Below are positions 6,336-53,010 of a stretch of DNA of 64,000 nucleotides, piece by piece. Made by a program: the position numbers and the translations under genes. Location: NCBI RefSeq assembly GCF_964194155.1, contig NC_135901.1, forward strand, positions 25,792,001-25,856,000. The letters are read 5' to 3'. Numbering within the stretch: the first letter of the stretch is position 1; each line of letters begins with the position of its first letter. This stretch comes from Cetorhinus maximus. Taxonomy: Eukaryota. The notes beneath the pieces were generated by a model. It was not told the DNA's origin. It saw nothing but the letters and a program-made list of their open reading frames with translations, and did not search any database.

Positions 6336-6445
6336 TCTTCGTTGAAGAAGAGCCATATTGGACTCAAAATGTTAACTCTGTTTCATTTTCCACACATGTG
6401 GCCAAGCCTTGTGATTGTCTGCAAAACTTTCAATTTTTATTTTAG
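6336..6445 (+). mobile_element. Old degenerate PLE hammerhead+tail fragment
   Basis: TTGAAGAAGAGCCATATTGGACTCAAAATGTTAACTCTG is a decayed copy of the motif at 1130-1170. Confidence 0.6.
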
Positions 6446-6539
6446 TCAAAATCTTTACGCCTGAAGCTGACAAACTATTTGAACAGACTGAGGTCACTGC
6501 GCCCTCCACTCCCATTTTTCATCCTAGTCCCAGGAGTTT

Positions 6540-6836
6540 GGAAGCTGAGCTCCGGATGAGTAATGGCGGCTGCAGCCCCCACAAGTCCTCGCGCTGGGGA
6601 AACCGCTCAATCCATCGAGCGGACGGGCGACCCGGGACTGCGCATGTCTAACGGAGCGGGAAATTGCGCATGTGCCAAAGAGAGCCCATCCCACCTACTT
6701 GCTGAGGTTCGGTCCAATGGGAAGAGTTGGAGGACCGGAAGAACGCTGGTCCTCCAGTCAATCAGCGCGTACTTTGTGACAATGAAGATTGAGCTTCACA
6801 GCCTGAAACTTCCTCCTGTGTCCAACATCTGTGAGT
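6540..6836. promoter_or_regulatory. CpG-rich, probably bidirectional promoter and first exon of ZNF copy B
   Basis: YY1-like TAATGGCGGC, two NRF1-like TGCGCATG, CCAAT at 6714, ETS CCGGAAG at 6735, splice donor GTGAGT at 6831. Paralogous to 25390-26210 in reverse orientation. Confidence 0.7.
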
Positions 6837-8168
6837 AAAACACTTTCTTTCCTTCCTCTTTCCATTTCTTTTCTAATTCTGGGGGTAAATTGTTGACTTG
6901 CAGGAACTGAAGGGAAGGGAAGTGAATCCTGGGAGGGTGCAGACTCTGGAAAGGTTGGCCGAGGTCTCTCTCTTAACGACATTGACATCCTTTGCTCCCT
7001 CAGCTTGACACATTTATTTGGCAAAAAGGATGGTCTCTTTCTTAATGTTCAGAATTAAAGGGATAGTTTCCCCAGGAGATGGCTGGCATTTAAGGGAACA
7101 GTAAGTTAATATAGGACAAAGATATGTCTAGTGTTGTTATATGTTACTTAGTTGATATATTATTTATGGTTCTGTAATAAAGAAAATTTGCAACTATTTA
7201 TTGTTTTCTAATATAGTACTGTAGCTACGTTATATATTTCCAATCGCTGAGTCGTTACAACACCAAAGGAATCCAAAAGGCAACTAGTGTCCATGCTGAC
7301 TCTCTGTGGAGCAATCCAGTCATTCCTTTTCCCCTCTATATCCCCAGAACCCTGCAAGTTTATTTCCTTCAAGTCTTTAACCAATTTCATTTTGAATCAT
7401 TTGATCGTCCCTACTTCCACCAGCCTCATAGGAAGCGAGTTCCAGGCCACGACAGCTGACTGCCTAAATAAAGTTCTTCCTCGCGTTCTGGCTTTATCTC
7501 TAATCAAGTAATGAAGTCCTCTATATTACACACATTTTTAGTCCAGTAATATGGACATAGGCTAGCAGCCTGCATGAAGATTTTCAGGTGAGCGTGGATT
7601 TTTCGATCAGCATGTATCGTCACCTTCAGGAGAATTGGGAGGCTCATTATTAGGTACAGCAGAGTGAGAATGGAGGGAGAGTGTGTGGGACAGAGATTTA
7701 CAGCTTTTGGCGAATGAGAGAGGAAAGAATGTTCCATAGAAACTAGAATTGTCTGTTCTGAATTTTTATCCTGTACTGACAGTGATGACTTTTGTAAACT
7801 CTTTTGACAGCTGATTAGAAGGGGAGGATTTGCAGAAAGAAATCTCAAATGACATTTCCAAATCTTACAGACACTTGATTCGATGGGACCTGAATATCAC
7901 CAGCCTCTGAATCTAGATGCAGAACTGTTTGTCTGCTCTGTCTGCTTCAAAAGATTTTAAACATCAGTGTGACTGGAAAAGCACTGAGCACACACACCCG
8001 AGTGAGAGTGTTCCAGTGCACTGACTGTGGAAAGAGCTTTAACCAGTTACACAGCCTGACAAAAAAAATCACACCATTCACAGCGGGAAGAAACCATACA
8101 CATGTTCTGTGGTAGAAGAGACTTTAACTGCTTGTGAAGCCTGGAAGAGACACAGGGACACCGGCACC

Positions 8169-9233
8169 ATGGAGAAACCGTGGAAATGTGGGGACTGTGG
8201 GAAAGGATTCAGTTTCCCATCCCAGCTGGAAACACATCGCCGCATTCACACTGGGGAAAGGCCGTTCACCTGTTCTCAGTGTGGGAAGGGATTCACTCAG
8301 TTATCCACTCTGCAGGAACACCAACGGATTCACACCGGGGAGAGGCCTTTCACCTGCTTTGAGTGTGGAAAGGGATTCACTCATTCATCCGCCCTGCGGC
8401 GACACCAGCGAGTTCACACTGGGGAGAGGCCGTTCACCTGCTCTGAGTGTGGGAAGGGATTCACTCATTCATCTGCCCTGCAGAAGCACCAGCGAGTTCA
8501 CGCCAGAGAGAGGCTGTTCACCTGCTCTGAGTGTGGGAAGGGATTCAGTCGTTCATTCGCCCTGCGCAAGCACCAGCAAGTTCACACTGGGGAGAGACCG
8601 TTCACCTGCTCTGAGTGTGGGAAGGGATTCACTCGGTCATCTCACCTGCTGACACACCAGCGAGTTCACACTGGAGAGAGACCGTTCACCTGCTCTGTAT
8701 GTGGGAAGGGATTCAGTGAATCATCCACCCTGCAGAATCACCAGGCAGTTCACACCGGAGAGAGGCAATTCATCTGCCCCGTGTGTGGAAAGGGATTCAC
8801 TCAGTTATCAAGCCTGTTGCGACACCAGCAAGCTCACACTGGGGAGAGGCCATTCACCTGCTCCGAGTGTGGGAAGGGTTTCATTCAGTCAACCAGTCTG
8901 CTGACACACCAGCGAGTTCACACTGGAGAGAGGCCGTTCACCTGCAGTGAGTGTGGGAAGGGATTCACTGATTCATCGAGCCTGTGGAAGCACCGGCGAG
9001 TTCACACTGGAGAGAGGCCATTCATCTGCTCCGTGTGTGGAAAGGGTTTCACTGAATCGTCCAGCCTGCGGACACACCGACGCGTTCACTCTGGAGAGAG
9101 ACCATTCACCTGCATTGAGTGTGGGAAGGGATTCACTGATTCATCCAGCCTGAAGAAACACCGTCGAGTTCACACTGAGGAGAGATGCCCTTCACCTACT
9201 CTGAGTGTTGGTAGGGATTCATTGATTTGTTGA
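8169..9233 (+). CDS. Tandem C2H2 zinc-finger protein, 12 intact fingers, no KRAB (copy B)
   Basis: ATG at 8169 ([10 protein letters not shown]...), 12 C-x2-C-x12-H-x3-H fingers with TGERP linkers. Splice acceptor at 7810. A frameshift near 9186 ends the array. Confidence 0.9.
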   Translation: MEKPWKCGDCGKGFSFPSQLETHRRIHTGERPFTCSQCGKGFTQLSTLQEHQRIHTGERPFTCFECGKGFTHSSALRRHQRVHTGERPFTCSECGKGFTHSSALQKHQRVHARERLFTCSECGKGFSRSFALRKHQQVHTGERPFTCSECGKGFTRSSHLLTHQRVHTGERPFTCSVCGKGFSESSTLQNHQAVHTGERQFICPVCGKGFTQLSSLLRHQQAHTGERPFTCSECGKGFIQSTSLLTHQRVHTGERPFTCSECGKGFTDSSSLWKHRRVHTGERPFICSVCGKGFTESSSLRTHRRVHSGERPFTCIECGKGFTDSSSLKKHRRVHTEERCPSPTLSVGRDSLIC

Positions 9234-9295
9234 ACTTGCTGAGACACCATGGCTATCACACCAATTGGTGACCTTTTAGATGCTCTGACTGTGGG

Positions 9296-10300: not shown

Positions 10301-10499
10301 AGGATCAAGGAATTCCACCCTTTTAATTTCTTTTTCCAATTTCTTACCTCCTCAGAGGTGGTCCCGCCCTCCCAGCTGCCTTGTGTTCCCGGCCACATGT
10401 GATCTCAGAACTGTCCCTGTGCATTGTGATCTTCGCACGCCACATTCAATCCCTCCATCCTCACCCGGCAGCTTGCGATCCAGCACATTTCACACACAG

Positions 10500-12795: not shown

Positions 12796-12863
12796 AGAAC
12801 GAACATGGTCCAGTCCTGGCTGTAATTAACAGCAGCGAGAACGTTAGAATCAAATCTCTGCAG

Positions 12864-13725
12864 TCACATATGAACATGCTGGTGTCTCAGCAAGGTGGAT
12901 GACCAAGTGAATCCCTTCCCACACCCGGAGTAGGTGAACGGCTTCTCCCTAGTGTGACTGCTTTGATGTGCCAACAGGTGGGATGACTGAATGAATCTCT
13001 TCCCACACTCAGAGCAGGTGAGTGGCCTCTCCCCGATGTGAACTCGCTGGTGTGTCAGCAGGTAATTTCTTCCTTTAAAGCTCTTCTCACAGTCAGAACA
13101 TTTAAAAGGTCTCTTATCAGTGTGAAGACGCTGGTGCATCAGCAGGTTGTACGATTGAGTGAATCCCTTTCCACAGTCACAGCAGGTGAACGGCCTCTCC
13201 CCGGTGTGAATGCGCTGGTGTGACAGGAGGCTGGATGACTCTGAATCTCTTCCCACACACACAGCAGATAAATGGTCTCTCTCCAGTGTGACTGCGTCGA
13301 TGGTTTTCCAGCTGGGATGGGAAATTGAATCCCTTCCCACAGTCTCCACATTTCCACGGTTTCTCCATGGTGCGGTCGTCCATGTGTCTCACCAGGCTCA
13401 ACAATTAGTTGAAACCTCATCCACATATGGAGCACATATATGGTTTATCCCCACTGTGAACGGTGTGATTTTTTTTCAGGCTGTGCAGCTGGTTAAAGCT
13501 CTTTCCACAGTCAGTGCACTGGGACATTCTCACTCAGTTTATATCTCTGTGCTTTTCCATTCACACTGATGCTTAAAATATTTTGAAGCAGACAGAACAA
13601 ACATTTCTCCTTCTAGATTCACAAGCCGCTGATATTCAGGTCTCGATGAATCGAGCAACTCTGTCAGATAACGGCATGACATTTGGTTTGAGATTTCTGG
13701 CTGCAAATCCTCCCCTTCTAGTATC
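12864..13725 (-). pseudogene. C2H2 zinc-finger pseudogene (copy C), frameshifted
   Basis: [14 protein letters not shown] start at 13368, frameshift near 13242, several further fingers to 12864. Family leader 'LEGEDLQ...EYQRLVNLEGEMFV' lies upstream. Confidence 0.85.
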
Positions 13726-14452: not shown

Positions 14453-14555
14453 TGAAAATCTTTTCCCATTGTACAATTCCCATGGTGCAAGGAGCAGGGG
14501 GACAGATTTCAGGTTTTGGGAAGAGATGCAGCGGGTACGTGAGGGAAAACTTGTT

Positions 14556-14830
14556 TTAAGGGCCGCCTGATGTCCAGGCCCTCCCCCCCGCCCTATTCAC
14601 CCACGGTTTCCAGTATTCCACCCCTCTCGGTTTCCAGGCCCCCACCTTGTGTTCAGCCGCAGTCTGAGCACGGGCTGCTCCAGCACCTGCGCATTGGGCT
14701 CCTATGGGTATTGATAGGGAACTTTCTGCAGCGCGATGTATTCTGGGTAATTCACCCGCCATTAACAGAGTGAATTTCAGACGGAGCATTTATGTCCCGG
14801 CATCCCATTCGAGATCGGGGGTGGTGGGTG
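14556..14830 (-). promoter_or_regulatory. CpG-rich promoter/first exon of ZNF copy C
   Basis: CpG-dense segment upstream of copy C with a GC box and a TGCGCA motif; donor-like AAG|GTGGGG on the minus strand near 14645. Confidence 0.5.
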
Positions 14831-14920
14831 TCGGGGGCGGGGTAGAGACTCAACTCACAATATCAGAAACTCAATGTGTAAATTTTACAGCCGATACCCA
14901 GTGAACAAAGAACCCAGAAG

Positions 14921-15785
14921 CCCCTTCACTTCCTCTCTCCTCGCTGTCCAAGGGCCCAAACACTCCTTTCAAGTGAAGCAGCATTTCACTTGCATTTCCC
15001 CTAACTTAGTCTACTGCATTCGTTGCTCCCAATGCGGTCTCCTTTACATTGGAGAGACCAACGTAAACTGGGCGACCGCTTTGCAGAACACCTGCGGTCT
15101 GTCCGCAAGAAAGATCCAAACCTCCCTGTCGCTTGCCATTTTAACACTCCACCCTGCTCTCTTGCCCACATGTCTGTCCTTGGCTTGCTGCATTGTTCCA
15201 GTGAAGCCCAACGCAAACTGGAGGAACAGCACCTCATCTTCCGACTAGGCACTTTACAGCCTTCCGGACTGAATTTTGAATTCAACAACTTTAGATCTTG
15301 AACTCCCTCCCCCATCCCCACCCCCTTTCCATTTCTTCCCCCTCCCTTTTGTTTTTTCCAATAATTTATATAGATTTTTCTTTTCCCACCTATTTCCATT
15401 ATTTTTAAATCTATACCTGTAATGCCCTGTCAGTCTTTCCACCCCACCCCCACTAGAGCTGTACCTTGAGTGTCCTGCCATCCATTCTTAATTAGCACAT
15501 TCTCTTAGATAATATCACCACCTTTAACACGTCTTTGTTCCTTTGTCTGTGACATCTTTTGATTATCTGCTCCTATCACTGCTTGCTCGTCCTTACTACC
15601 ACCTCACCCTCCACCAACTTCTCTCCCCGCACCCGACCCCCCACCTTAAACTAGCTTATATTTCACCCCTCTCCTAACTTTACTCAGTTCTGCTGAAGGG
15701 TCATGAGGACTCGAAACGTCAACTCTTTTCTTCTCCGCCGATGCTGCCAGACCTGCTGAGTTTTTCCAGGTAATTCTGTTTTTGT
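14921..15785 (+). mobile_element. Penelope-like element (Neptune-type), 5'-truncated: GIY-YIG endonuclease C-terminus, 3'UTR and hammerhead
   Basis: 'FTCISPNLVYCIRCSQCGLLYIGET/KLGDRFAEHLR...PVACHFN...EQHLIFRLGTLQPSGLN' (one frameshift). 14-bp TSD AAAGAACCCAGAAG at 14907-14920 and 15786-15799. Confidence 0.92.
15686..15724 (+). ncRNA. Minimal type-I hammerhead ribozyme motif (A6C core variant, GUC cleavage triplet)
   Basis: AGTT-CTGCTGA-A-GGGTC(ATGAG)GACTC-GAAAC-GTC-AACT: stem I AGTT/AACT, stem II, GAAA and GUC. Confidence 0.75.
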
Positions 15786-17620: not shown

Positions 17621-17629
17621 AGGTGGCTG

Positions 17630-21312: not shown

Positions 21313-21313
21313 T

Positions 21314-25564: not shown

Positions 25565-25701
25565 GTTCTGTTGAAGGGCCATGAGGATTCGAAACGTCGA
25601 CTCTTTTCTTCTCCACCGATGCTGCCAGACCTGCTGAGTTTTTCCAGGTAATTCTGTTTTTGTTTTGGATTTCCAGCATCGCAGTAGTTTTTTGTTTTTA
25701 T
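25565..25701 (+). mobile_element. Short PLE insertion consisting of hammerhead and tail
   Basis: GTT-CTGTTGA-AGGGCC(ATGAG)GATTC-GAAACGTC-GACT followed by the PLE tail. Imperfect 11-bp TSD CCA(C/T)CTGAGAG. Confidence 0.85.
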
Positions 25702-25812
25702 CCATCTGAGAGACTTTGATCTCGAGACACTCTGAGCTATTGGCCAATGGGAACAGCTGGAAGACCGAAAGGGCTCGGGTCCTCCAATCAATCAGAGCTC
25801 GGCTTTTCTTCT

Positions 25813-26006
25813 ACAAAAACAGAATTACCTGGAAAAACTCAGCAGGTCTGGCAGCATCGGTGGAGAAGAACAGGGTCATGAGGACTCGAAACGTTAACTG
25901 ATTTCTTCTCCACCGATGCTGCCAGACCTGCTGAGTTTTTCCAGGTAATTCTGTTTTTGTTTTGGATTTCCAGCATCCGCAGTAGCTTTTAGCTTTTTGT
26001 TTTTAT
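25813..26006. mobile_element. Short PLE insertion with inverted tail duplication
   Basis: ~55-bp inverted tail arms around a partial hammerhead. 15-bp TSD CTCGGCTTTTCTTCT at 25798-25812 and 26007-26021. Confidence 0.88.
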
Positions 26007-26809
26007 CTCGGCTTTTCTTCTGTTCCCCAGCTCTCTCTGTACATGCGCAGTCTGCCGTATTTCCTCACATGCGCACCTCTCGCATCTCCGCTCATGCGCA
26101 GCGCCCTTCCACTCACCGCGCACATGCGCAGTCCCGTTCGCTTGCACGGCGGACAGAGCGATTTCCCCACCGCGGTAGTTTGTGGGAGCCGCGGCCGCCA
26201 TTACGGAGCAGGAGGTGAGCCTGACCCAAAGTGCATGTGGGTCTTCACCGGATTTGACTGTGACGCCCCCTTAACGAAGCGGTTTGTTAACTTTTGGCAT
26301 AAGGATTTAGACACCTAGGTGACATATTGTGGAGGCCAATAGATGACTGAAACTGATCTATAGAGTCCGCATCTTCAGAGGAGGAAATTGAGGAAAATTA
26401 ATTAGGGTTACAATCAATAGGGAGGAGGGACAGTTTGGTGGTCGTTTCGACGGTTCAATGGCGCTACTATTACCCAACATACCTTGCGGATGGGAATGTG
26501 CTCTATTCAGGCTGCAGGAGTCCAGTGCGTAGGCGCAGAGCTGGCCTGTCTCTGGAGCATGCGCAGTGTCACCTTGCTCAGGGCCCTCCGAGTGTGGGAT
26601 CGGCTTCAGGAAATGGGTGAGAGGCGGCGGGGCCGCAGGGGAGGAATGGAGCTGGGAGGTGCGGGTGGGGAAGCTGCATAAACACCTTGTGAAGGCCGCA
26701 ATCCCTGAATCAGACCCTGAAGGTCCCGTGTTTGCAGCCCCAGATCTTATTCCCCTGGATCAGGCCCAGGTTAACGGCCTCGGTCCAGTGGAGCGCGAGG
26801 GCGGCCATT

Positions 26810-28410
26810 TGTTTTATTCATTCACGGGACACGGGCTTCACTGGCTGGACCAGCATTTATTGCCCATCCCTAGTTGCCCTTCACAAGGTGGTGCTGAGCT
26901 GTCTTCTTTGAACCGCTGCAGTCCATGTGGTGTAGGTGCACCCACAGTGCTGTTAGGAAGGGAGTTCCAGGATTTTGACCCAGCGACAGTGAAGGAACAG
27001 TGATGTATTTCCAAGTCAGGATGGTGATGTTCCCATCTATCTGCTGCTCTTCCCCTTCTATATAGTAGTGGTCGTGGGTTTGGAAGGTGCTGTTGACGGA
27101 GCCTTAGTGAATTCCTGTAGTGCATTTTATGGATGGTGCGTCGGTGGTGGAGGGAGTGAATGTTTGTGGATGGGGTGCCAATCAAGTGGGCTGCTTTGTC
27201 CTGGATGGTATCCAGCTTCTTCAGTGTTGTGGGAGCTGCACTTATCCAGGCAAGTGGGGAGTATTCCATCACACTCCTGACTTGTGCCTTGTAGATGGTG
27301 GACAGGCGTTGGGGAATCAGGAGGCGAGTTACTTGTCGCACGATTCCTAGCCTTTGACCTGCTCTTGTAGCCACAGTATTTATATGGCTGGTCCAGTTCA
27401 GTTTCTGGTCAATGGTAACCCCCAGGATGTTTATAGTGGGAGATTCAGTGATGGTAATGCTATTGAACATCAAGGGGCAATGGTTGGATTCTTTCTTGTT
27501 GGAGATGGTCATTGCCTGACACTTGTGTGGTGCGATTGTTATTTGCCACTTGTCAGCCCAAGCCTGGATATTGTCCAGGTCTTGTTGCATTTGGACTTGG
27601 ACTGCTTCAGTATCTGAGGATTGATGAATGGTGCTGAACATTGTGCAATCATCAGCGAACATCCCCACTTCTGACCTTATGATGGAAGGAAGGTCATTGA
27701 TGAAGCAGCTGAAGATGGTTGGGCCTAGGACACTACCTTGAGGAACTCCTGCAGTGATGTCCTGGAGCTGAGATGACTGACCTACAACAACCACAGCTAT
27801 CTTCCTTTGTGCTACGTATGACTCCAACCAGCAGAGAGTTTTCCCCCTGATTCCCATTGACTCCAGTTTTGCTAGGGCTCCTTGATGCCACACTTGGTCA
27901 AATGCTGCCTTGATGTCAAGGGCAGTCACTCTCACCTCACCTCAGGAGTTCAGCTCTTTTGTCCATGTTTGAACCAAGGCTGTAACGAGGTCAGGAGCTG
28001 AGTGGCCGTGGTGGGACCCAAACTGGACATCAGTGAGCAGGTTTTTGCTGAGCAAGTGCCACTTGATAGCACTGTTGATGACCCCTACCATTACTTTACT
28101 GATGATAGAGAGTAGACTGATGGGGCGGTAATTGGCCGGGTTGGATTTGTCCTGCTTTTTGTGTGCAGGACATAACTAGGCAAGTTTCCACGTGGCCGGG
28201 TAGATGTCAGTGTTGTAGCTGTACTGGAACAGCTTGGCTAGGGGCGCGGCAAGTTCTGGAGCACAAGTCTTCAGTACTATTGCCAGAATGTTGTCAGGAC
28301 TCATAGCCTTTGCAGTATCCAGCACCTTCAGCCGTTTCTTGATATCACGTGGAGTGAATCGAATTGGCTGAAGACTGGCATCTATGAGGCTGGGGACCTC
28401 CGGAGGAGGC
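26810..28410 (-). mobile_element. CR1-group LINE 'type B' with RT ORF
   Basis: 365-aa ORF with 'LDIKAAFD', 'GVPQGSVLGP' and 'FADDCT'; family tail at 26810-26880. Confidence 0.92.
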
Positions 28411-29090: not shown

Positions 29091-29120
29091 CTGGGCCAGG
29101 AGAGACGTTGTGAATTTCTA

Positions 29121-29228
29121 AAACAAAAACAGAAACAGAAATACCTGGAAAAACTCAGCAGGTCCGGCAGCATCGGCGGAGAAGAGCACAGCTGACGTTT
29201 CGAGTCCTCATGACCCTTCAGCAGAACT
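29121..29228 (-). mobile_element. Short PLE insertion (hammerhead and tail)
   Basis: Minus strand reads AGTT-CTGCTGA-AGGGTC(ATGAG)GACTC-GAAACGTC-AGCT (29190-29228), followed by the tail. Confidence 0.88.
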
Positions 29229-30080: not shown

Positions 30081-31049
30081 CCCCAGTGTGTTCACTGTTG
30101 ATTTACCAGCTTTATCTTCCCGTGGTCAGGAATTGTTTTCCTGCACTAGAGATAATTTTTCCTCCACCTCTGAGTGTACATTTCCCGTCAAATTTTGCTC
30201 AATTTTCATTCCACGTAATTCATTCTGCACATCCTGAAATATTAAATGCTGAGTATTTCCAGCATTTGCTCCTTTTATTTCTGATTACCAGCAGCTGCAG
30301 TATTTTGTTTTTGTTTTATTGCAGGCTTTGCTCACATAACCAAATCTAGAAACAGAGATGGACCAATTAAGAACTGATCTGTATTGGGTTGGGTGTTGGT
30401 TGGACAAGTTGCTCCCTGGCCTTCAGTGTTGAGCCTTTTACATGCGGTCATGGAATGATTGCAATATATAAGGAGACCATTTAGCCCATCATTCCTGTGC
30501 TGGCTCTCTGCAAGAACAATCAACAAGTCCCACTCGCCAACCCTTTCCTGATTGCCCAGCAGTTTTATTCTCTTCAGTGGCTTCAATTCCCTTTAGGTAT
30601 TGACATCATTTTGAGCTGGAGTGGAGATGGAGCAGAAGCTGCTGGGTTTAACCTCGAGAACCTTAGAACCCAGTCAGGTCCGGCAATTTCAGATGTGAAA
30701 TTGGCAAGGGAGGTAGATTCTCAGGGAGATCAGGTTGCACAACGGACACTGTCCATACAACGTAACAGGATATTGTTTCAGGAACAAGTATTTCTGTAGA
30801 TGGTTTTAATCTATTTTACATGTACATATTTTTAAAATGTATTCTTGGAGTTAGGGCGTCATTAACAAGACCAGTAGTTACCTGCCAATCCCCAGTTACC
30901 TGTGGAGAAGATGCTGTTTGACCTTCTTGAACCGCTGCAGTCTGTGTAGTGAAGATGCTCCCACAATACTGTTAGATAAGGAGTTACAGGTTAGACACCC
31001 AGTGATGATGAAGGAACGCTGGTGTATGTCCAAATCAACAGCAATAATG

Positions 31050-35995: not shown

Positions 35996-36530
35996 TCTGC
36001 AGGATCTTCACAAGATCCTCCAAATCCAGTGGCAAAAAAGGTGATCCACCAGCAGCGTCCTCTCCCAAGCCAACTCAACCAGCATCGAGGGGCTAATCAC
36101 TCAAAACCAGCTCCCCTGGGCAGGACATGTTGTTCGTATTCCCGACACCAGGTTCCTGAAGCAACTTCACTACTTGGAATTCGGTCGCGTCAGGAGAGTT
36201 CAAGAAGGACAGTGGAAACGCTTCAGGAATCTCCTCAAAGTGTCTCTGAAGAGGTCAAACATCCCTGCAGACTCATGTGAGACTCTGGCTTGTGACTGGT
36301 CGAAATGGAGAAGGCTCATCTGGGAAGCACATCGAGAGACTTAGTCAGGAATCTGCAGAGGCAAAGTTGAGGCATCTGAGGGAGCGCACAAACCTTCAAA
36401 CATCCCATCTCCACAACCCTTTTGTGGCAGAGTCTGCAGATCGCATATTGGACTTATCAGCCATCACAGAACCCATCAAACTGGAGAGGAAGCAAGTCAT
36501 CCTCGATTCTGAGGGATTGCATAAGCATTA
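35996..36530 (+). mobile_element. RTE-clade LINE 3' fragment
   Basis: 'KILQIQW...PSIEGLITQNQLPWAGHVVRIPD' motif, homologous to 40790-41715. Confidence 0.8.
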
Positions 36531-38367
36531 TCTGACTTCATTTCACATCTCCAGCATCCTCAATGTTTTGATTTTGTATCAGGATTGATCATTAATTATG
36601 GTGATTATGGGATGGGGTGGTGGGGTGGGGTCGGGTGGGATTTGTTGATGCTGACAATCTCCAAAAAAGCAGGCAGCAATTTCATATTCCGTATATGTGT
36701 CTGTTGAAAAAAATCAATGCATCTGCCTTCGCATTAAACGAGGACAACGTGGGTAACATAGGCATGATGGAGAAGACAAATCTAGCCTGAAGTTGAAAAT
36801 CCGCAGTATTGTTACAGTTCTGGGCACCAGAATTTCAATTGGATATACTCGTCATGGAAGGAGTGCAATGCAGCCTCGCCAGAATGATAGCAGAGCCTCG
36901 GGATTAGTTTGTTTTTTAAGTCCATTCTCAGGATGTGTGTCACTGACAAGGCTGGCATATATTTCCCATCCTTTACTGCCTCTTGAGAAGATGGTGGTGA
37001 GCCGCCACCTTGAACTGCTGCAGTCCATGTGCTGTAGGTTAGAGCTGTTAGGAAGGGGCTCTGAGGATTTTGACCCAGCAACAGTGAACAGACGGTAAAA
37101 TAGTTCCAAGTCAGGATGGTGTGTGGCAGGCGTCGAAATAATTTACTTTTCTTGAGGGCAACTTTTTGAATTTCAGGAGTTACTTTTTGGTTTTCAGGGG
37201 CTCCTCAATTCAAAAGATTTATGTGAGAAAACCATCAGTTCATGAAGCAGCAACTTGCAAACATGCTCTACATCTCCATTAAAGGATATCAAAGAAACGA
37301 GAGACTCAATGTTGAGCAGGCGGCCAGGAGTCCAACAGCCATTAAACAGTTTTCCTTCATTCACCTACCCCCCCCTTCCCCATTCACCTCCTCCAGTGAC
37401 TGATATTAAAGCAAACTCAAGGTCTGGAACATTGGGCTCTTCTGCATCGACTGAATCCTGACTTTTTCCACCCACCAACGCTTTGTTTTTAAGAAGCAAA
37501 GACACACACAACGACAGCCAAAACAGTTTGTATACAGACAGAGACTTCCGTAGCAACAACAGCTGAAGAAAAATCAAAGGGGAGCAGAAAAAAAAACTAG
37601 ATTTCTCCCACAATATTTTTTCACCCTCTGCTCCAAATCTCTAAGCTTTGCTCACAAAATAATTGATTGGACAAATATGAAAGAGGAAGAAAGCCTTTGG
37701 AAAGGATTTAACTTTCCTTTCTCTTTTTGGTTATTGTTGTTCCAGTTGTAGTTTGTAAATGTGAAAGCCAGGCCCAGGAGGAGGGTTTCAGAAGGAAAAA
37801 TAAATATATATTTTAAAAAAGTTGGGATATCATATTAATGAAGAAAATAAGCTGTGTGTGAAATTGAACAATGCTGCCTGTTTCCCAAACTCTGTCTCTC
37901 TCGTCCTGAGAGGCCTCCTTCCCCCGCCAATCCAGCTTCTCCTTCCTCAATCTCCCTCTCTCTTTCCCCCCTCTCACATTCCCTCTCTCTCTCAGACACA
38001 GTCGGAGCCTCTTTACCTGCAATGCATCTGCCACCATCTTGGGCTCCCTCTCTCCTCTTCATCCTCCAATGGCATTGCCGACATCCCAATTCATTTTTTT
38101 TCTTTTATATTGAAATAGGAGGGTTGTTGTAACTGGGAGAGGGGTGGGGAGGGGGCATTTTATAAATAATTTAAATTTTAGAAAAAGAGTCACCGCAGTG
38201 CTCCCTCCCCTATGGCTGTCAGAAAAAGACCCTTTTACCCCCTCAATGTAAAACACACAACCCCAGAGGCTGAGATTGTGTTGACCAATCCCAGCCTCCA
38301 ACCACACAAGGAATCCCAAGGGCAGAACGAAACTGGCTAAAGGTGATTTGTTTGATGGGATCTTTTT

Positions 38368-38472
38368 GTTCTCTGAAAGAGGATCATACGGGCTCGAAAC
38401 GTTGACTGTGTTTCTCTCTCCTCAGATGCTGTCAGACTTGCTGAGTTTTTCCAGCATTCTCTGTTTTCTTCC
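38368..38472 (+). mobile_element. Short PLE hammerhead+tail insertion (diverged)
   Basis: CTGAAAGAGGATCATACGGGCTCGAAACGTTGACT followed by the tail CAGACTTGCTGAGTTTTTCCAGCA. Confidence 0.75.
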
Positions 38473-38739
38473 TGTTCTCTCTTCAGGTGAGTAAACAGGT
38501 ATCCGAGGATGCTGAGGGAAGGTAGGGCTAAAATTGCAGAGGCACTTACCATGATCTTATCAATCCTCCTTAGACACATGGAGTGGTGTCAGAGGACTGG
38601 ATAATTACAAATGTCACATCCTTGTTCAACAAAAGGAGGGTGGAGGAGAAACCCAGCTCCCTGATCATCTGGGACAAAGTTCGATGCTGGCTCAGCTTCT
38701 GCAGCATCTGCAGGAGTTGCCGACGGACCGCCTCCTGTG

Positions 38740-39320
38740 CCAACGTCACAATCGGTCTCCAGCGCACCTGAGCTCCACACAAGGCCCCGCCTCCTTGCAG
38801 TGCCGACATTGATTGGTCGTCCCGTTGCCCCATTGGTCCTCCAGGCTCGCCTCGCTCGCTCTCTATTGGTTGGAGCGCACGTCAGTCATCGCTCAGGCCC
38901 CCCCCCCCCCGGATCATGTGGCGGTCAGGGGCGTCGCCGCTGCACCCACTCGCTCCACTCGGTGTCCTGTTAGCCTCAATCGGACTCTTAGGTTTGTATT
39001 TTATTTGATTTCCACCCCCCTCTCTCTCTCTCTCTCTCCACCCTTACCCCACCTTGTACCTCACTCACTCGGTTTGGGAAAACTCACTTTCCATCGGTGA
39101 TTAGGCCTCAACGGCCGCCTTACAGCGCGCAGGCGCAGTGCTGCCCAGGTTGGTTTGAGCCAACTGAGCATGCGCGGCGCCCGTATGGTGATCCGCATAA
39201 TTAAAGGGACCCTGTCCCTGTGTTCACTTGTGATTAAAAGGGACAGTGACAGTGTGAGAAAGAGATTGATTTCAGTGGAGAGGGAGGAAGCGCGGGTTTT
39301 CAAGCAATCAAAGTAAGAAA
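38740..39320 (+). promoter_or_regulatory. CpG-island promoter and 5' exon(s) of ZNF copy G
   Basis: GC box, three ATTGG, GGTCCTCCA half-module, NRF1-like GCGCAGGCGCA and GCATGCGC. Donor GTAAGA at 39313, acceptor at 39404. Confidence 0.7.
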
Positions 39321-39496: not shown

Positions 39497-40258
39497 ATGG
39501 AAGGGGAGAGCAGCGAATACCATGTGGACAAACCTTACACATGTTCCGTGTGTGGACGTGGATTCAACCGAGCGTATGACCTGGGGAGGCACAAATGTAT
39601 CCAAAATAGGGAGAGGCCATGTAAATGTGGGGACTGCGGGAAGGGGTTCAGTTACCCCTCTGAGCTGGAAACTCATCGACGCATTCACACCGGGGAGAGG
39701 CCGTTTACCTGCTCTGTGTGTGGGAAGGGATTTGTTCGATCTTGCAATCTGCGGTCACACCAGCAAGTTCACAGTGAAGAGAGACTGTTCATCTGCTCCA
39801 TGTGTGGGAAGGGATTCACTCGATTTTCCCACCTGCTGAGACACCATAAAGTTCACACTGGGGAGAGACCCTTCACTTGCTCTGTGTGTGGGAGGGGATT
39901 TTCTGATTCATCCGACCTGCTGAAACACCAGCGAGTTCACACAGGTGAGAGACCGTTCACCTGCCCCAAGTGTGGGGAGAGATTCACTCAAATTTCTCAC
40001 CTACTGAGACACCAGCGAACTCATACCAGGGAGAGGCCCTTCAGCTGCTCCGTTTGTGAGAAGAGATTCACTCAAGCGTCCAACCTGCTACGACACCAGC
40101 GAGTTCACACCGGGGAGAGGCCGTTCATCTGCTCTCTGTGCGAAAAGGGATTTGCTGAGTCCTCAACCCTGCTGAGACATCAGCAAGTGCACATGGGAAG
40201 AGATCATTCACCTGCTCCATTTGTGGGAAGGGAATCACTCGATCATCCAACCTGGTGA
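39497..40258 (+). CDS. Tandem C2H2 zinc-finger protein (one atypical plus 7 canonical fingers), no KRAB (copy G)
   Basis: ATG at 39497 ([16 protein letters not shown]...), uninterrupted fingers; a terminal frameshift near 40193 removes a last finger. Confidence 0.85.
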
Positions 40259-40402
40259 AACACCAGCCAGTTCACACGTGGCTGTACTGCTTTGATTCTG
40301 CTGCTGTTTATCAGATTCAGGAATGAACCTTGTTAATTATGATATTGGGGAAGTGTTGTTGATGTTGCTGCTAACTACAGTAACGGGGCTGGAGGTGACA
40401 GA

Positions 40403-45000: not shown

Positions 45001-45121
45001 TCCACTGATTATTAAGACAAGGCGCTAACTTGAATGTTCCACCTCTTTACTGTTCTGATCTTCTACTCTTTTTAAACTATTACCATTCACAAACATCTAG
45101 GAGAATTTTGACAGTTTAGCG

Positions 45122-45380
45122 AGTGTCTGTAAATGTAGGAGAAATGGAGACTGGTCAGGGAGTGTCTGTAAATGGAGGAGAAATGGAGACTGGCCAGGGA
45201 GTTTCTTGTAAATGGAGACTGGTCAGGGAGTGTCTGTAAATGGAGACTGGTCAGGGAGTGTCTGTAAATGGATGAGAAATGGAGGCTGGTCAGGGATCAT
45301 CTGTAAACAGAGGGGAAATTGAGACTGGGCATGGAGCATCTGTAAATAGAAACTGGTCAGGGAGTGTCTGTAAATTGAGA
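45122..45380. repeat. Minisatellite, ~28-37 bp unit GTGTCTGTAAATGGA(GGAGAAATGGA)GACTGGTCAGGGA
   Basis: About 7 diverged tandem copies visible. Confidence 0.85.
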
Positions 45381-46777
45381 AAGGAAGACCGTTTAGAGAA
45401 TGCTGACAAAGGGATGGTAATTGTGATTTTTCAGGTAGTGTCTGTGACTGAACAAGAACTGGTGAGTGGATGGAGTATGTCTGTACAGGAAGGAGAATTG
45501 GTCCCAGGAAGCCCTTGGTTAGTTGTGGGAGACATTGCAGATGGACAGCTTACAGGGAGGAACAGAGTAATAGGACAAAGAGAGAGAGAATGCACATACA
45601 GAAAAAAAAGGAAATAAATGATTTGTAAAGTTGACTGGTGATCGCAAGGTGGGTCAATGAGAAAAGTGATAATAACAAAAGAGACAATCAAGAGAAAGTA
45701 GAGAAATAAAAGACATACAAATCTCCGAGGATGTGAGGACAGGTACAGCAGATGAACTAAGTTGGAGATTGTTAGAGGATATTATGATTTGTTGATGATT
45801 CAATGTTCCATCTACTCCTCATTCAGGAAGGTTCTAGAACTGTTAGGGTCAGATGTCACAGATTTATTCAGTGTATATATTATTTAAACCCACACACTGG
45901 GCAATGGTAGCTGGGGACTTGGCTACAATAAAGTTCCCAGCTCAGTGTTAAGGTTGATCAAATCCTTCAAACCCAAACTCTTGGTACAGTTCACATACCT
46001 CGATGTGTTTGTTTTCACATTATGTTGTGATATCAAAAGGTAACAACTCGCCCACAAGGGAGAAACTACTGAGACTCTCTAACTTTAGAATAACTCGACT
46101 ATTTAAACTGAGTTCTTCAGAAATACATTGTTATCATCCTTGGACTAATGGAATCAGTGTAACTTCCTATTTCATTACCCTATTGCATGTTCCTCTATTG
46201 TCATTTAATTGCTATTCTACAAGTGAAACATTTAATCCTGAGTGTTACAGAGTCAAAGACATTCACTACCCTTGTTGTAAATTCTAACTGGAAATATAGC
46301 GTTTTGCACAATTATCCTCCCTTTATAATTACTTCATAATCTCTCACTGAAAAGTTTCTAATTAATTTTCCAATTGACCAGGTTGTAATGTCATGTTAGA
46401 AGTTGCTGGAGCTGTGAGGGTCAGTCTGTGTTCAAACATTCAGGATCACCATCTTGGTCTGATCATGGAGCTCGACAATTAGAATTACTTGCAGATATTA
46501 CAATATTATAATTTTAAAATCACACTTCCCTCTTTAACAGAGGTTAGAAGTTAAATGAACAATGATGTAAAGACAAATCATTAGTGTTGTTGGATGAGCA
46601 TCAGGTCATTTCAACTCAGTTATAAAAACTGTTGCTCGTAAGATTAACCCTTTCCTTAAAGAACAAAACACCCCGTAGATTCACCCTCCTAATACCTCCA
46701 GACAATGACCCCAGCACTGAACACCTCACCATCAATTCTCAGACTGTCACTGGCCTCATCCCTTCTGGAAGAGAATC

Positions 46778-47120
46778 CAGTCATCGCAGAACTGAACCCA
46801 AACAGAGTCAGTACCTTCAGGAGAGGACAGAGAGGGAAACAGTCACTGTAGAGCTGAACCCAGTCAGAGTCAGCACCTTCAGGGGAGGAGAGAACGAGGA
46901 ACCAGTGAGTGTAAAACTGAACCCAGTCAGAGTCAGCACCTTCAGGGGAGGAGAGAGAGAGGAACCAGTGAGTGTAAAACTGAACGCAGTCAGAGTCAGC
47001 ACCTTCAGGGGAGGAGAGAGAGAGGAACCAGTGAGTGTAAAACTGAACCCAGTCAGAGTCAGCACCTTCAGGGGAGGAGAGAGAGAGGAACAAGTGAGTG
47101 TAAAACTGAACCCAGTCAGT
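46778..47120. repeat. 63-bp minisatellite (~5.5 copies) upstream of ZNF copy H
   Basis: CTGAAC recurs at 46792, 46854, 46917, 46980, 47043 and 47106. Confidence 0.95.
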
Positions 47121-47746
47121 GTCCATACCTTGAGACGAGGGAGAAAAGTTGCCCGGAAGGAAATATGTTGAAGATGGTGTTATGAGTTTGGATTTGAGCA
47201 CAGGGAAGAGAGATGGAACGTGGAATGGGGATTTATAGTTTTGGAGAAGGGAAAAGAGAGTTGTGGTGATCTGCACACGGGCAGGTTCTCTGTTCATTTC
47301 TCTGTGCCTCACAGTCTTGCGCTTTCCTCATCAGTTGCTCATAAGACCCTCCCATTTTCAACTTCAATCAACTCCATGGCTATGGATAAGAATCCATGAG
47401 GTGGCTTCCCATTGCCTTCCTCATATGTGTTTAGAGGAAACACAAGTTCCCTTCCTGAAGGATCCTCCCTCCTCCTGTAAGCAGTTGTTGTCCCTCAAGG
47501 TTCTAGTTCTTTCACCATCACCACTGAAAGTTCACTGGATCCTCCATTGGCCACGGCTCATAACCCTGAGCGTGGGACCCTTACCTGGGCCTGGAGCAAC
47601 TCACAAAATAGCCCCCGGATGTCTTAAATAACCTTATTACCCTAAAGAGAGGAAAGAAAGAGCAAAATGTTCCATAGAAACTAGAATGTTTTTCTGAATT
47701 TCTATCGTGTTCTTACAGTGATGACTTTTGTAAACCCCTTTCACAG

Positions 47747-48534: not shown

Positions 48535-50389
48535 TTCCTGGGGTTTGGATTCTGCTGTTATTGCTGCTGTTAATCACTTTCAGGACTGAACCATGTTCAT
48601 TCTGAAAGCCGGAGATTTTTTCCTGCTGATGTTCATAACCTCTGTATGTGGGATGGAGTTTAATATTCTGGATACATGCCAAATAAAGTAGAGTGAAGGT
48701 GTATTCTCTAAAGGATGACTTCCAGTAATGTAAGCTACCATGAATGTGGTGAATCACTGTAAAATAATTAGAAAATAAATGTGATGTTTGTATCTGGACT
48801 TTGTGTTTGGATTATTGTGGGAAATAGGTGGCACAGATACGATGGGTCTGTAGTATCGCCTCTGTCAGATGGGACGGACCCTCCTTTAAACTGCTTCTGA
48901 GAGGAGAGTGCTGCCCCCTAAAGCAGGATAAGCGAGGGCAGATCAGGGTCATACACTGATTATACTGCACCCAACAGGGACATCACAAATTGCCCCTTTT
49001 CTGAGGCAATCATTGCTGGAGTGACTGCAGCCAGAACATTGGAACAGGAGAAGGCCATTCAGCCCCTCAAGCCTGCTCCACCATTCAATGAGATCATGGC
49101 TGACCTGCACTTCAACTCAATTTTCCCATCTTTGATCCATTTCCTTTGATATCTCTATTTAAGAATCCATTGATTCCCATCTTGAAAATTTCAACCACAG
49201 CCTTTTGGAGAGATTGGTCCAGATGTTTTTTATTCATTCGTGCAATCTGGGTGTTACTGGCTAGGCCAGCATTTATTACCAATCCCTAATTGCCTTTGAG
49301 ATGGCTTGCCTTCCTGAACTGCTGCAGTCCATGTGGTGCAAGTACACCCACGGTGCTGTTACCTGAACAAGTTGTTTCTGATTTCACTGGACAGGTTGTG
49401 TATTAAACAATGACTCAATGTCTAACACAGACACCAGGGACAGAAATCCAGTTACCCTGAGAGAATACATGCAGCTGGACAGGGGTCACTGAACTGAATT
49501 CTGACCACAGAAAGTTCACTCAAACAAAACCAGACTGAACATGAAGTTAAAGCAGAAACAGAAGCAGATGTGATAGTTCCCAATCAATCACAATGTAAAC
49601 TGAAGTGGATTGAACATTGGAGCAGCTGGATTAGAATCATAATGCAGAATCAATGATAAACTGAGACAATTCATTTAAGGATAATGGAAAATACTGGAGA
49701 AAGATAGGAATGGTTTGATTCTGAGAGGGCGAGGAGAGGCTTGGTAGAGGATAGATAAGGATATGGTTTCTGCAGCAACTGTAGTTCTGCACTTTCACAT
49801 GGAAGGAGGTGGTGAGATGATGTAATTGTCACCATTAAGCTGCAAAAGTAAAATCAAGACTCCATTTGGACAATGAAGTGGATATACAAAGGAGAAGATC
49901 TGTCAGTTTGGCGGCAGTTGTAACTTTTAAGGTTATTAGTAAATAATAACTGTTCGTATTCCTGCATCTGAGTCAGAAACCGCACTGCGATCAGTTCTGA
50001 TGATTGGAGACGGCTCTCCAGCTCATTCTGGGTTGATATCATGCAGGATAGGTGTGTCCATTATGTGAATTGTGAGCTCATCAAACTCTCCCAGTTGAAG
50101 CTGGACCAACAGATCGGCTGGAATTAAATAGTCCCAGACATGGAAGAAGCGTTAAACAGCCTGTGAATTCTTCCATTAATTCACACTGTTCAAAGAGAAA
50201 CAATCACTACACTGTGTAATTTCCTGAAATAATCCCTGCTGTCTGTCCTGAATGAATCCATTTCAGTAACAAATGTTGAAATGTTTGCTCCACACCCACA
50301 GAGTTTCATCTGTTTAAAGCCACAAACAGGAAGGTCCAGTTTTCTCCTGGAGTTTGAGACAAATCAGCTTCCAAAATGATGCAGAGTTT

Positions 50390-50760
50390 CAGCCAATGAG
50401 GGAGACCCGGGCTCAGCCCCGCCCCCTCATTCACTCCGATTGGTTGGAGGACCAGCCGCTCTCGCTCGGCCCTCCAGCCCCGTCCCTTCTTCCTATTGGT
50501 CTGGAGCTGCCGTCAATCACTCCCCGGGCATTGTGATCTGGAGCACGCGCAGTGCGGGTGATGTCCAGGGACAGACACTTGTTTGTCTCATCTTCAGGCG
50601 GGAAGGAGGCGGATAAGCGGAGGCAGCGTTAGGGGCAGTGGGTGGGAGGGGAGGCTTCACAAACACCCAGTGGAGGCTTCAACACCCCCAGTAAGAAAGT
50701 ACCGGGCCCGCCTTTGCACCGAACAGAACGGCAGCTGCGGGCTTTCTCCCGGTGCCAGGC
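50390..50760 (+). promoter_or_regulatory. CpG-rich promoter/first exon of ZNF copy I
   Basis: CCAAT, GC box, ATTGG-TGGAGGACC...GGCCCTCCA-ATTGG module and NRF1-like GCACGCGCA; closely paralogous to 63405-63974. Confidence 0.7.
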
Positions 50761-50773
50761 CCGAGTGGACAAA

Positions 50774-51269
50774 GATAAAAACAAAAAGCTAAAAGCTACT
50801 GCGGATGCTGGAAATCCAAAACAAAATAAAAACAGAATTACCTGGAAAAACTCAGCAAGTCTGGCAGCATCGGCGGAGAAGAAATCAGTCAACGTTTCGA
50901 GCCCTCATGGCCCTTCAGCAGAACTGAAGCATAGTTTCAACAAGGGAGAAATATAAATTGGTTTAAGGTGGGTGGGGGGGAAGAGACACATTGAGGGTGT
51001 GATTAGCACTTTTCTCAGACAAAGACCACCACCTTCAACACCTCTTTGACCCTTTTGTCTCTGACATCTTTTGATTATCTGCTCACACCACACCCTCAAT
51101 GTGTCTCTTCCCCCCCACCCACCTTAAACCAATTTATATTTCTCCCTTGTTGAAACTATGCTTCAGTTCTGCTGAAGGGCCATGAGGGCTCGAAACGTTG
51201 ACTGATTTCTTCTCCGCCGATGCTGCCAGACTTGCTGAGTTTTTCCAGGTAATTCTGTTTTTATTTTGT
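50774..51269. mobile_element. PLE insertion forming a ~180-bp inverted repeat, with one hammerhead per arm
   Basis: Arms ~50821-51001 and ~51089-51269; hammerheads at 50887-50925 (-) and 51165-51203 (+). 14-bp TSD CCCGAGTGGACAAA (50760-50773, 51270-51283). Confidence 0.92.
51165..51203 (+). ncRNA. Minimal type-I hammerhead ribozyme motif with covarying stem II
   Basis: AGTT-CTGCTGA-A-GGGCC(ATGAG)GGCTC-GAAACGTT-GACT. Confidence 0.7.
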
Positions 51270-51387
51270 CCCGAGTGGACAAATGTGGGTTAATGAAGGA
51301 AATGCAGCAATGGATTTGTTAATGAGAAATCACCTTTAACTCACTTTACTGATCCTGGAGCAGGAGGAGTGAATGGTGTGAATTTCT

Positions 51388-51487
51388 GTTCTGTTGAAGA
51401 GTCATATGGACTCGAAACGTTAACTGTGTTCCCCTCCGCAGATGCTGCCAGACCTGCTGAGTTTTTCCAAGTATTTTTATTTTTGTT
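51388..51487 (+). mobile_element. Short PLE insertion (hammerhead and tail)
   Basis: GTT-CTGTTGA-A-GAGTC(ATATG)GACTC-GAAACGTT-AAC; 12-bp TSD GTGTGAATTTCT (51376-51387, 51488-51499). Confidence 0.88.
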
Positions 51488-53010
51488 GTGTGAATTTCTA
51501 TCTTGGACCAACATGGATGGATTTGTTAATGAAAAATCATCTTTAACTAACTTGCTGGAGTTTTTAGAAGAGGTAATAGAGAGGGTTGACAAAGACGATG
51601 ATAATATGTGATTAACATGGATTTCCAGAAGACATTTGATAAAATGCCACACAACAGACTTGTGAACAAAGTTATAGCTCATGGAATAAAAGGGTCACAG
51701 AATTGGCTGAGCGCCAGGAAACAGAGCCGTGGTTAATGGATGTTTTTCGGGCTGGAGGAAGGTTTGCAGTGGAGTTGCCGGATACTTCTTCAACTGTGAG
51801 ATTTTTCTCTGACTCCAGTGCTTATGATACCTTTCCAGCTGCAGGATCCAGCAGGAGATAATATTGAAAAGTGAAGTTGTTTTAGTTATTATTTCAGAGT
51901 ATTTTTTGACCATTCATCTACAAATTTGAGCGTTTAGTGCTATGCTTTGTTATCTCTGAGAATTCCCATGTCTTTGGGGCTGGCATGACTCCTTTACGTG
52001 GATCTGAATCCGTGTCCGTCCATTGCTCTGTTTCACCTCTGCCCTCCCATATCACCTCTTTGCCATTGTCTAACTTCCTCTGTCTCTAATAATGGGTGTA
52101 TTTTAACTGTGTTTAGTATTTTACTGTTACTTCTGCTGACCATGTCTAAATGAGATTTCCACCACTGCCCATCCCCTGACCATGTGCTGCTGGCTGAATA
52201 GCTTTACCTTCCCACAGCATCTTTCATAGTCAGGAATTGTTTTCCCTGCTCTATGGTCCATTTCTCTTCCACTTCTGAACTTATATTGACCATCAAATTC
52301 TGCATCATTTTTATTGCCCATAATTCATTCTGCACCCACTCAAATGTTAACTCTATTTCTTTCTCCACAAATGCTGCCAGACCTGCTGAGTATTTCCAGC
52401 ACCTTGTGTTCTTATTTCCGATCTCTAGCATCTGCAGCATTTTGCTTTTATTTAAGTCAGGCTGGTGTGTGACTTGGAGGGGAACTTGGAAGTGATGGTC
52501 TTCACACACACTTGCAACCCTGGTCCTTCTAGATGTAGAGATTAAGGGTTTGGGAGATTCTGTCAAAGTTCTGCTTGATTGTAGGTATATAAAATCCCTC
52601 ATCTTCATTCCCCCCCCCCCCCCCCCCCCCCCCCCCCGCCTCTCACACCTCTCTCTCTCTCTCAATCTCTCCTCCCATAGAGGCCAGAGTCTTGTGTAGA
52701 GCCAGACAGGGTGGAAGGTTCTCTTCCCTCAAGGACATTAGTGATCCAGTTGGGTTTTTACGACAATACAGCAGTTTTCATGGTCACTTTTTCCTAGTGC
52801 CAGCCCCACAAATTACCAGATTCATTCAGTTCAATTTCACAATCTGCCTTTGTGTTTTTGTGGATTCCCTCTCACTCCCTTTTTTCTGTTTTAAATCTAT
52901 TTCACAGAGTGTTAGGAGGGGAGGATTTGCAGTCGGGAAGCTGAAACCCAACATCATATCAGGATCAGTCACCCAATTCATCACAACCTGAATGTCATTC
53001 AATGTTAAAC

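What the first reader, a model, noticed from the sequence alone, without database searches (positions are those of the whole stretch)
6336..51499. PLE insertions cluster at ZNF CpG-island promoters and first introns
Seen: PLE pieces lie at 6336 (next to promoter 6540), 14921 (next to 14556-14830), 25565 and 25813 (inside the bidirectional promoter), 38368 (next to 38740), 50774 and 51388 (just after first exon I) and 29121 (intron of E). CR1, L2 and RTE copies are spread evenly. TSDs of 11-15 bp (ATCCAAGTACAGTG, AAAGAACCCAGAAG, CTCGGCTTTTCTTCT, CCCGAGTGGACAAA, GTGTGAATTTCT) share no obvious sequence. Inference: targeting of open germline chromatin rather than a sequence motif, placing potential self-cleaving or hairpin RNA into ZNF pre-mRNAs.
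Basis: partly seen in the sequence, partly recalled or inferred. Interest (0 to 1): 0.7.

Follow-up and report, generated by a model that had tools for sequence, protein, structure and literature searches.

The report
Penelope retrotransposon favours promoter edges
Copies of a Penelope-type jumping gene sit about three to four times more often beside CpG-island promoters than elsewhere in this genome, at ordinary genes as well as zinc-finger genes, likely because its cutting enzyme reaches bare promoter DNA more easily, although most copies still lie far from promoters.

Summary
The clustering is real and holds outside the window. In 464 kb of this ZNF cluster, 22 of 47 independent Penelope-like (PLE) insertions lie within 500 bp of a promoter-like CpG island (15% expected; 16 of 37 outside the window); other repeats do not (42 of 274). 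It is not ZNF-specific: 86 YY1-motif islands on other contigs carry 0.227 PLE/kb within 1 kb, against 0.095 at 2-5 kb and 0.054 in random DNA. Motif sites without an island, and repeat-derived islands, show no excess. Young copies show it too; three window insertions have empty sites in other runs. The bias is modest: 4 of 58 young copies genome-wide have a unique island nearby. TSDs share no motif, but the 8 bp outside them are A-rich on both strands; this does not explain the bias. Best reading: passive preference for nucleosome-free promoter edges (inferred; chromatin untested). The 'ribozyme into pre-mRNA' idea fits 3 of 8 listed pieces at most. The scan noted single PLE-at-promoter cases elsewhere in this genome; no enrichment test turned up. 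I found no paper reporting this for PLEs.

The parts
1074..1266 (+).
6343..6445 (+). Old pLTR remnant (76% to nearest copy) at the upstream edge of the 6451-6850 island; no intact TSD
6451..6850 (+). Promoter-like CpG island upstream of the ZNF array at 8085-9113
14501..14850 (-). Promoter-like CpG island of the minus-strand ZNF array at 12954-13350
14921..15785 (+). Young 5'-truncated PLE (end of GIY-YIG frame plus pLTR), 14-bp TSD, 70 bp upstream of the island
25567..25700 (+). Young pLTR insertion between promoter cassettes; empty site in coded runs X1, X9, X17
25813..26006 (+). Young fold-back pLTR insertion, 15-bp TSD; precise empty site (209-base skip) in X1, X9, X17
25951..26900 (.). 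Bidirectional promoter-like CpG island between ZNF arrays at 23448-24439 (-) and 32618-33376 (+)
29119..29225 (-). Young pLTR, antisense in the inferred intron, 2.2 kb from the island; absent from a contig of run X15
30247..30312 (+). Old pLTR remnant shared by 7 paralogues; its T-rich tail leads into a likely splice acceptor at 30324/30325
36524..36575 (+). Weak, old pLTR-like remnant 2.0 kb from an island
   Evidence: E 2e-4
38372..38468 (+). pLTR remnant 133 bp upstream of the 38601-39200 island
38601..39200 (+). Promoter-like CpG island upstream of the ZNF array at 39542-40275
50301..50800 (+). Promoter-like CpG island and inferred first exon (donor near 50690) upstream of the ZNF array at 53142-54945
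50774..51269 (+). Fold-back PLE insertion, 14-bp TSD, about 200-bp near-perfect arms, A6C hammerhead locked in the stem; inferred intron 1
51388..51487 (+). Young pLTR insertion, 12-bp TSD, A6U hammerhead core with shortened helix I; inferred intron 1
52342..52449 (+). Old pLTR remnant of the paralogue-shared group, interrupted downstream by another repeat

Best explanation
This Penelope-like retrotransposon family is 2.4 to 4 times denser at the edges of CpG-island promoters across the genome, likely because its GIY-YIG endonuclease must nick both strands of about 30 bp of bare DNA, which nucleosome-poor promoter flanks would offer more often. Shown: the enrichment, its independence from ZNF genes, its presence in young copies, 11-17-bp TSDs, and a symmetric A-rich 8-bp flank. 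Inferred: two nicks by one enzyme about 14 bp apart, each followed by a T-rich tract on the cut strand; dependence on accessibility rather than a tethering factor; loss of copies that hit the core promoter or first exon. The ZNF cluster shows the effect clearly only because it packs one island per ~11 kb.
For: Cluster: 22 of 47 within 500 bp vs 15.4% (p 4e-7); 16 of 37 outside the window (p 4e-5); 0 of 5000 circular shifts reach it; other repeats 42 of 274 (Fisher p 5e-6), short ones 21 of 149. It holds after excising PLE sequence and under 4 island definitions. PLE density is 0.377/kb at 0-500 bp and 0.05-0.07/kb beyond 1 kb, close to random DNA. No excess near ZNF exons: 3 of 47 vs 12%. Off-cluster: 39/172 kb near vs 24/252 kb at 2-5 kb (p 5e-4) vs 21/390 kb random (p 4e-8); bootstrap folds 4.2 (2.8-6.8) and 2.4 (1.5-4.3). 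Motif sites without an island 5/68 kb; repeat-derived islands 3/63 kb; other repeats flat by length and age. Young copies: 13 of 23 in the cluster vs 3 of 11 old. Empty sites for 25565, 25813 and 29121. The flank bias (A 41%, T 15% at -8..-2, vs 28/27% in control) predicts only 1.02-1.04-fold rates near promoters.
Against: No chromatin, methylation or TSS data were available; promoters are sequence-defined. The TE-anchored test gave no support: 4 of 58 young copies have a unique island within ~1.5 kb vs 8.8% of random positions, a figure inflated by two island-rich random stretches. Thirty loci of a GC-rich repeat with a YY1-like motif also show 11/90 kb (0.12/kb), mostly older copies, so about 2-fold regional variation exists. 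Off-cluster, young copies near vs far is p 0.055 only; normalising by non-repeat bases shrinks the contrast (0.22-0.33/kb near, 0.12-0.22 far, 0.10 random). The random set holds only 21 events. Fixed copies mix insertion with selection.
Confidence: 0.6

Rival explanations
1. Retention bias: PLEs insert evenly, but short remnants survive or stay visible better near promoters, where larger repeats are purged and do not bury them.
For: Other-repeat cover falls from ~45% to 15-29% within 1 kb of promoters, and normalising for it reduces the contrast. Only present-day copies were counted. Inserts sit more upstream than downstream (32 vs 19), a sign that selection shapes the pattern.
Against: Short other repeats are flat (0.30-0.35/kb at 0.25-1.5 kb, 0.17-0.36 farther, 0.26 random), young other repeats are flat, and in the cluster the youngest PLEs are the most enriched (13 of 23 vs 3 of 11). 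Enrichment persists against non-repeat DNA (26 of 47 vs 23%).
Confidence: 0.2
2. Active tethering: the PLE protein, perhaps through its CxxxxCxxC linker, binds a promoter factor or chromatin mark and is guided to promoters.
For: The excess depends on a real island, not on the motif or CpG content. The linker is present and is hypothesised to steer targeting in Neptune PLEs (PMC8557442 passages); here 0 of 65 targets are microsatellites.
Against: Only 2.4-4-fold; 54 of 58 young copies have no unique island nearby; the excess spreads over ~1 kb with no fixed distance.
Confidence: 0.1
3. Replication or break coupling: insertion follows early origins or transcription-linked nicks that coincide with CpG islands, not accessibility as such.
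For: Density stays ~1.8-fold above random at 2-5 kb from promoters (0.095 vs 0.054), a broad regional effect. That islands are often origins is recalled, not from a call.
Against: The symmetric flank bias and 11-17-bp TSDs point to the element's own enzyme; the steep rise within 500 bp in the cluster is narrower than timing domains.
Confidence: 0.07
4. Artefact of ZNF gene duplication or of hand-picking in one window.
Against: Shared groups were removed; the result replicates outside the window and on other contigs; TSDs differ and empty sites exist.
Confidence: 0.03

Closest known systems
Promoter-biased transposons: Drosophila P element, maize Mutator, rice mPing, fission yeast Tf (PMC6719617 passages); CryptonF-1 in Chlamydomonas (PMC9977147 passages)
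   Same: Insertions accumulate upstream of protein-coding genes, ascribed to open chromatin.
   Different: Those are DNA transposons, LTR elements or Cryptons, shown with de novo insertions. This is a GIY-YIG non-LTR element in a vertebrate, the bias is only 2.4-4-fold, and it is inferred from resident copies.
Endonuclease-positive Penelope-like elements of Neptune/Nematis type (PMC8557442 passages; PMC3846280 passages)
   Same: RT followed by C-terminal GIY-YIG with internal cysteines, CX2-5CxxC linker, 5' truncation, inverted truncated copy, optional tail, variable TSD.
   Different: Reported insertion biases are microsatellites or rDNA; here 0 of 65 targets are microsatellites and the bias is to promoter edges.
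PAc, the anole PLE studied in vitro (PMC11167929 passages)
   Same: [quoted passage not shown]
   Different: That work used naked DNA; the passages seen report no genomic or promoter preference.
Minimal hammerheads of metazoan pLTRs (PMC4209133, first quarter of text and passages)
   Same: Core plus unpaired base, 5-bp helix II, palindromic helix III that needs a dimer.
   Different: The young copies here carry A6C or A6U cores; A6C strongly slows cleavage in Mg2+ in other hammerheads (PMC7151607 abstract and Results section).

Membership tests
EN+ Penelope-like element | RT followed by a C-terminal GIY-YIG endonuclease in one frame | tested here: met
   L015 has one open frame with YIDD and VYC..C..C..LYIGET; Pfam GIY-YIG E 5e-4, 20.6 bits, just under the 22.6 cut-off. 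Window 14921-15785 matches these copies at 91-95%.
EN+ Penelope-like element | pLTR, 5' truncation, inverted truncated copy, variable TSD | tested here: met
   TSD lengths 11-17 in 52 filtered sites, mode 14 (the filter kept only 11-17)
EN+ Penelope-like element | Minimal hammerhead in the pLTR | tested here: met
   Pattern found in 7 of 15 window pLTR hits, canonical core in 1; Rfam found no hammerhead
Neptune/Nematis clade | CX2-5CxxC linker upstream of GIY-YIG | tested here: met
   CPRRRCNTC in L006, L016, L017, L025
Neptune/Nematis clade | Placement in an RT tree | not tested
   no reference RTs in hand
Neptune/Nematis clade | Microsatellite insertion bias (a reported tendency, not a strict criterion) | tested here: not met
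   0 of 65 target sites
Promoter-biased transposon (P/Mu/Tf type behaviour) | Excess of copies upstream of genes over random and over other repeats | tested here: met
Promoter-biased transposon (P/Mu/Tf type behaviour) | Bias shown in de novo or unselected insertions | not testable with these tools
   only resident copies; young copies and empty sites are indirect support
Promoter-biased transposon (P/Mu/Tf type behaviour) | Most insertions at promoters (strict targeting) | tested here: not met
   4 of 58 young copies
Promoter-biased transposon (P/Mu/Tf type behaviour) | Overlap with open germline chromatin | not testable with these tools
   no ATAC or methylation data

The most novel reading that the evidence does not exclude
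This is the first Penelope-like element with a genome-wide preference for promoter DNA: its enzyme makes a symmetric double nick that needs a nucleosome-free stretch, so its very many copies form a fossil map of germline open chromatin in this lineage, and about four in ten CpG-island promoters (35 of 86 sampled) have acquired one within 1 kb, making it a steady source of promoter and splice-site variation.
Probability: 0.45. Interest if true: 0.72.

Novelty: new variant of a known kind. Interest (0 to 1): 0.55.

Why it matters
PLE target choice is known mainly as microsatellites, rDNA or telomeres; a promoter bias in a vertebrate would be a new behaviour for the class. It gives a direct handle on an open question, how the GIY-YIG enzyme picks sites in chromatin, with a testable geometry (two nicks about 14 bp apart, T-rich 3' of each). 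It also means a large share of promoters in this genome carry recent, lineage-specific inserts that could change expression. No effect on any gene is shown.

Tried and rejected
Rfam scan of the window: only chance hairpin matches, no hammerhead. A second young-subfamily search returned nothing. The first set of 29 genome-wide copies all have AAA after the 3' end, but the query included the TSD, so this was treated as selection bias and the set was left out of target-site counts. The TE-anchored test was underpowered and uninformative for a mild bias. The BANP-type pattern gave mostly non-island loci (4 of 15 islands; 8 events in 45 kb) and the ETS-CRE pattern only 7 loci (5 hits in 3 loci); neither was pooled into the statistics. 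The CAAMATGG pattern hit a repeat family, used only as a caution. A 'hot spot' reading of 29121 and 51388, which share a paralogous junction, was dropped: the segment has about 37 copies among 43 matches in the cluster and my rough estimate of a chance pair is about 0.3. CpG or GC content as the driver was rejected. An internal-exon control outside the cluster and a larger random sample were not obtained; this leaves open how much of the off-cluster excess is a general gene-region effect.
Full report
Setting. The window is G000:C24:25,792,001-25,856,000 of a 4-Gb genome. 'Shark-like' comes from earlier scan notes, not from a test of mine. It is part of a C2H2 zinc-finger cluster: 58 arrays and 42 promoter-like CpG islands in the 464 kb made of the window and 200 kb on each side. 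Islands were called from sequence (GC at least 55%, CpG o/e at least 0.5, 13 CpG per 300 bp, not repeat, not ZNF exon). The promoter motif names (YY1, NRF1, CCAAT, BANP, ETS-CRE) are recalled. No TSS data exist here, so gene models are inferred.

What the pieces are. The five TSDs each occur twice, around PLE pieces. Longer relatives of 14921-15785 carry an RT followed by a GIY-YIG domain and a CPRRRCNTC linker; Pfam GIY-YIG scores 20.6 bits, E 5e-4, below its cut-off of 22.6. A profile of the terminal repeat found 85 hits in the cluster, 32 in 40 random 10-kb stretches and 0 in reversed decoys.

Test in the cluster. I merged pieces by hand into 72 events, kept the 66 with a terminal repeat, and removed 19 that fall in 5 groups shared by gene duplication, leaving 47. 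Of these 22 lie within 500 bp of an island (15.4% expected, p 4e-7): 6 of 10 in the window and 16 of 37 outside it (p 4e-5). None of 5000 circular shifts reached 22. Other repeats give 42 of 274, short ones 21 of 149. After cutting PLE sequence out and re-calling islands, the count is 26 of 47 vs 17%, and it stays significant under three other definitions, weakest 18 of 47 vs 13%. Density is 0.377/kb at 0-500 bp, 0.192 at 0.5-1 kb and 0.05-0.07 beyond, so the cluster's excess over random DNA is confined to promoter edges. ZNF exons attract none (3 of 47 vs 12%). By identity to the nearest copy: 13 of 23 (at least 92%), 6 of 13, and 3 of 11 (under 85%) lie within 500 bp.

Test elsewhere. I took 120 YY1-pattern sites off C24 (of 109 and 173 matches, the first 60 as 3-kb loci and 60 listed ones as 10-kb loci); 86 are CpG islands. 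They hold 39 events within 1 kb (0.227/kb), against 24 in 252 kb at 2-5 kb and 21 in 390 kb of random DNA (39 stretches; L082 dropped because it lies on C24 near the cluster). Bootstrap folds are 2.4 (1.5-4.3) and 4.2 (2.8-6.8); 35 of 86 islands have a copy within 1 kb; the 34 motif sites without an island give 5 in 68 kb; with strong hits only (80 bits) p is 0.02 against far and 9e-4 against random. Repeat-derived islands give 3 in 63 kb. Short other repeats and young other repeats are flat. Relative to the motif, 32 events lie upstream and 19 downstream within 1.5 kb, mostly in CpG-poor flanks; in the cluster 15 are upstream, 12 on the gene side, 1 unassigned.

Results against. Starting from the element, 4 of 58 young copies have a unique island within about 1.5 kb, no more than the 8.8% of random positions, which two island-rich stretches inflate. 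So most insertions ignore promoters. A GC-rich repeat family also shows 11 events in 90 kb, only one of them young. Off-cluster young copies are 17/172 kb near vs 13/252 far (p 0.055). Other repeats cover less DNA near promoters, and correcting for this narrows the contrast.

Recency. Contigs of runs X9 and X17 (organism C) skip 25553-25701 and 25798-26006 exactly, the latter with a 15-letter ambiguity equal to the TSD; run X1 holds both filled and empty forms. A contig of X15 lacks 29121. These contigs may be orthologues or close paralogues; either way the inserts are recent and independent.

Target site. In 52 filtered sites TSDs are 39% GC with no positional signal, and 0 of 65 targets are microsatellites. 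Positions -8..-2 outside the TSD are A 41%, T 15% on both sides, against 28%/27% in a control conditioned the same way. A matrix from this bias predicts 1.02-1.04-fold rates near promoters, so sequence does not explain the pattern. I infer two nicks about 14 bp apart, each with a T-rich 3' side, a footprint near 30 bp; the anole element PAc cleaves and extends both strands and prefers AT-rich DNA in vitro (PMC11167929, passages). Such a footprint would fit linkers and nucleosome-poor promoter flanks, giving a mild passive bias; selection would then thin copies in core promoters and first exons.

RNA consequences. By inferred gene models 6336, 14921 and 38368 are upstream of their starts and 25565 and 25813 lie between divergent starts; an RNA-by-guess contig crosses the latter two empty sites, so transcription there is not excluded. 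29121 is intronic but antisense. 50774 would form a ~200-bp hairpin in intron 1 (-377 kcal/mol, z -38) that locks up its own hammerhead. Sense cores there are A6C and A6U. Minimal PLE hammerheads show no activity as monomers and low activity as dimers (PMC4209133, first quarter and passages), and A6C slows cleavage in Mg2+ (PMC7151607, abstract and Results). Self-cleavage of ZNF pre-mRNA is unlikely; a hairpin effect at one gene is possible and untested.

Comparison with the literature. Promoter-proximal preference is described for P, Mutator, mPing and Tf (PMC6719617, passages) and CryptonF-1 (PMC9977147, passages). For PLEs the passages seen report microsatellite or rDNA bias (PMC8557442), intronic microsatellite targets and a tentative 'preferential insertion?' label in anole (PMC7561263, passages); passages of PMC12910113 and PMC3846280 report no promoter bias. 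Searches listed no paper on promoter bias of PLEs (listings only; subscription journals and supplements were not seen). Earlier scan notes describe single PLEs beside the APTX, CLSPN and a ZNF promoter; they are unchecked leads, and a word search for an enrichment finding returned none.

Verdict. Observation partly confirmed and extended; interpretation partly supported. A real, modest, genome-wide promoter-edge bias of a Neptune/Nematis-type PLE, most likely from DNA accessibility (0.6). New variant of a known kind; interest 0.55.

Noticed in passing
window 30247-30325 and six paralogues in L031-L070: An old pLTR tail forms the pyrimidine tract of a likely splice acceptor shared by 7 ZNF paralogues. 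A contig of run X15 (RNA by guess) starts aligning at 30323 with 27 unmatched letters before it, as a spliced read would. Possible exaptation.
   Followed up: partly
52 PLE target sites, cluster and genome-wide loci: Symmetric A-rich, T-poor 8-bp flank just outside the TSD on both strands (A 41%, T 15%), absent beyond -9; suggests one enzyme nicks both strands with the same preference.
   Followed up: partly
window 25400-26390, run X1: The best-matching run holds both the filled version and an empty version that differs at 17 of 259 letters; either a divergent allele or a close paralogue.
   Followed up: no
G000 contig C24, about 0.4-35 Mb: 37 of the 100 listed matches of one YY1-type pattern lie on this contig, suggesting a very long ZNF gene array; 58 arrays were counted in 464 kb.
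   Followed up: no
L216-L245: A GC-rich ~350-bp repeat family with a YY1-like core, about 3000 pattern matches genome-wide, members ~80% alike; PLE density around it is 0.12/kb, unexplained.
   Followed up: partly
window 46770-47155 and 45071-45406: A 63-bp tandem repeat and a 28/39-bp tandem repeat.
   Followed up: no
window 1000-1350: The PLE at 1074 sits inside a local tandem duplication of its flank.
   Followed up: no
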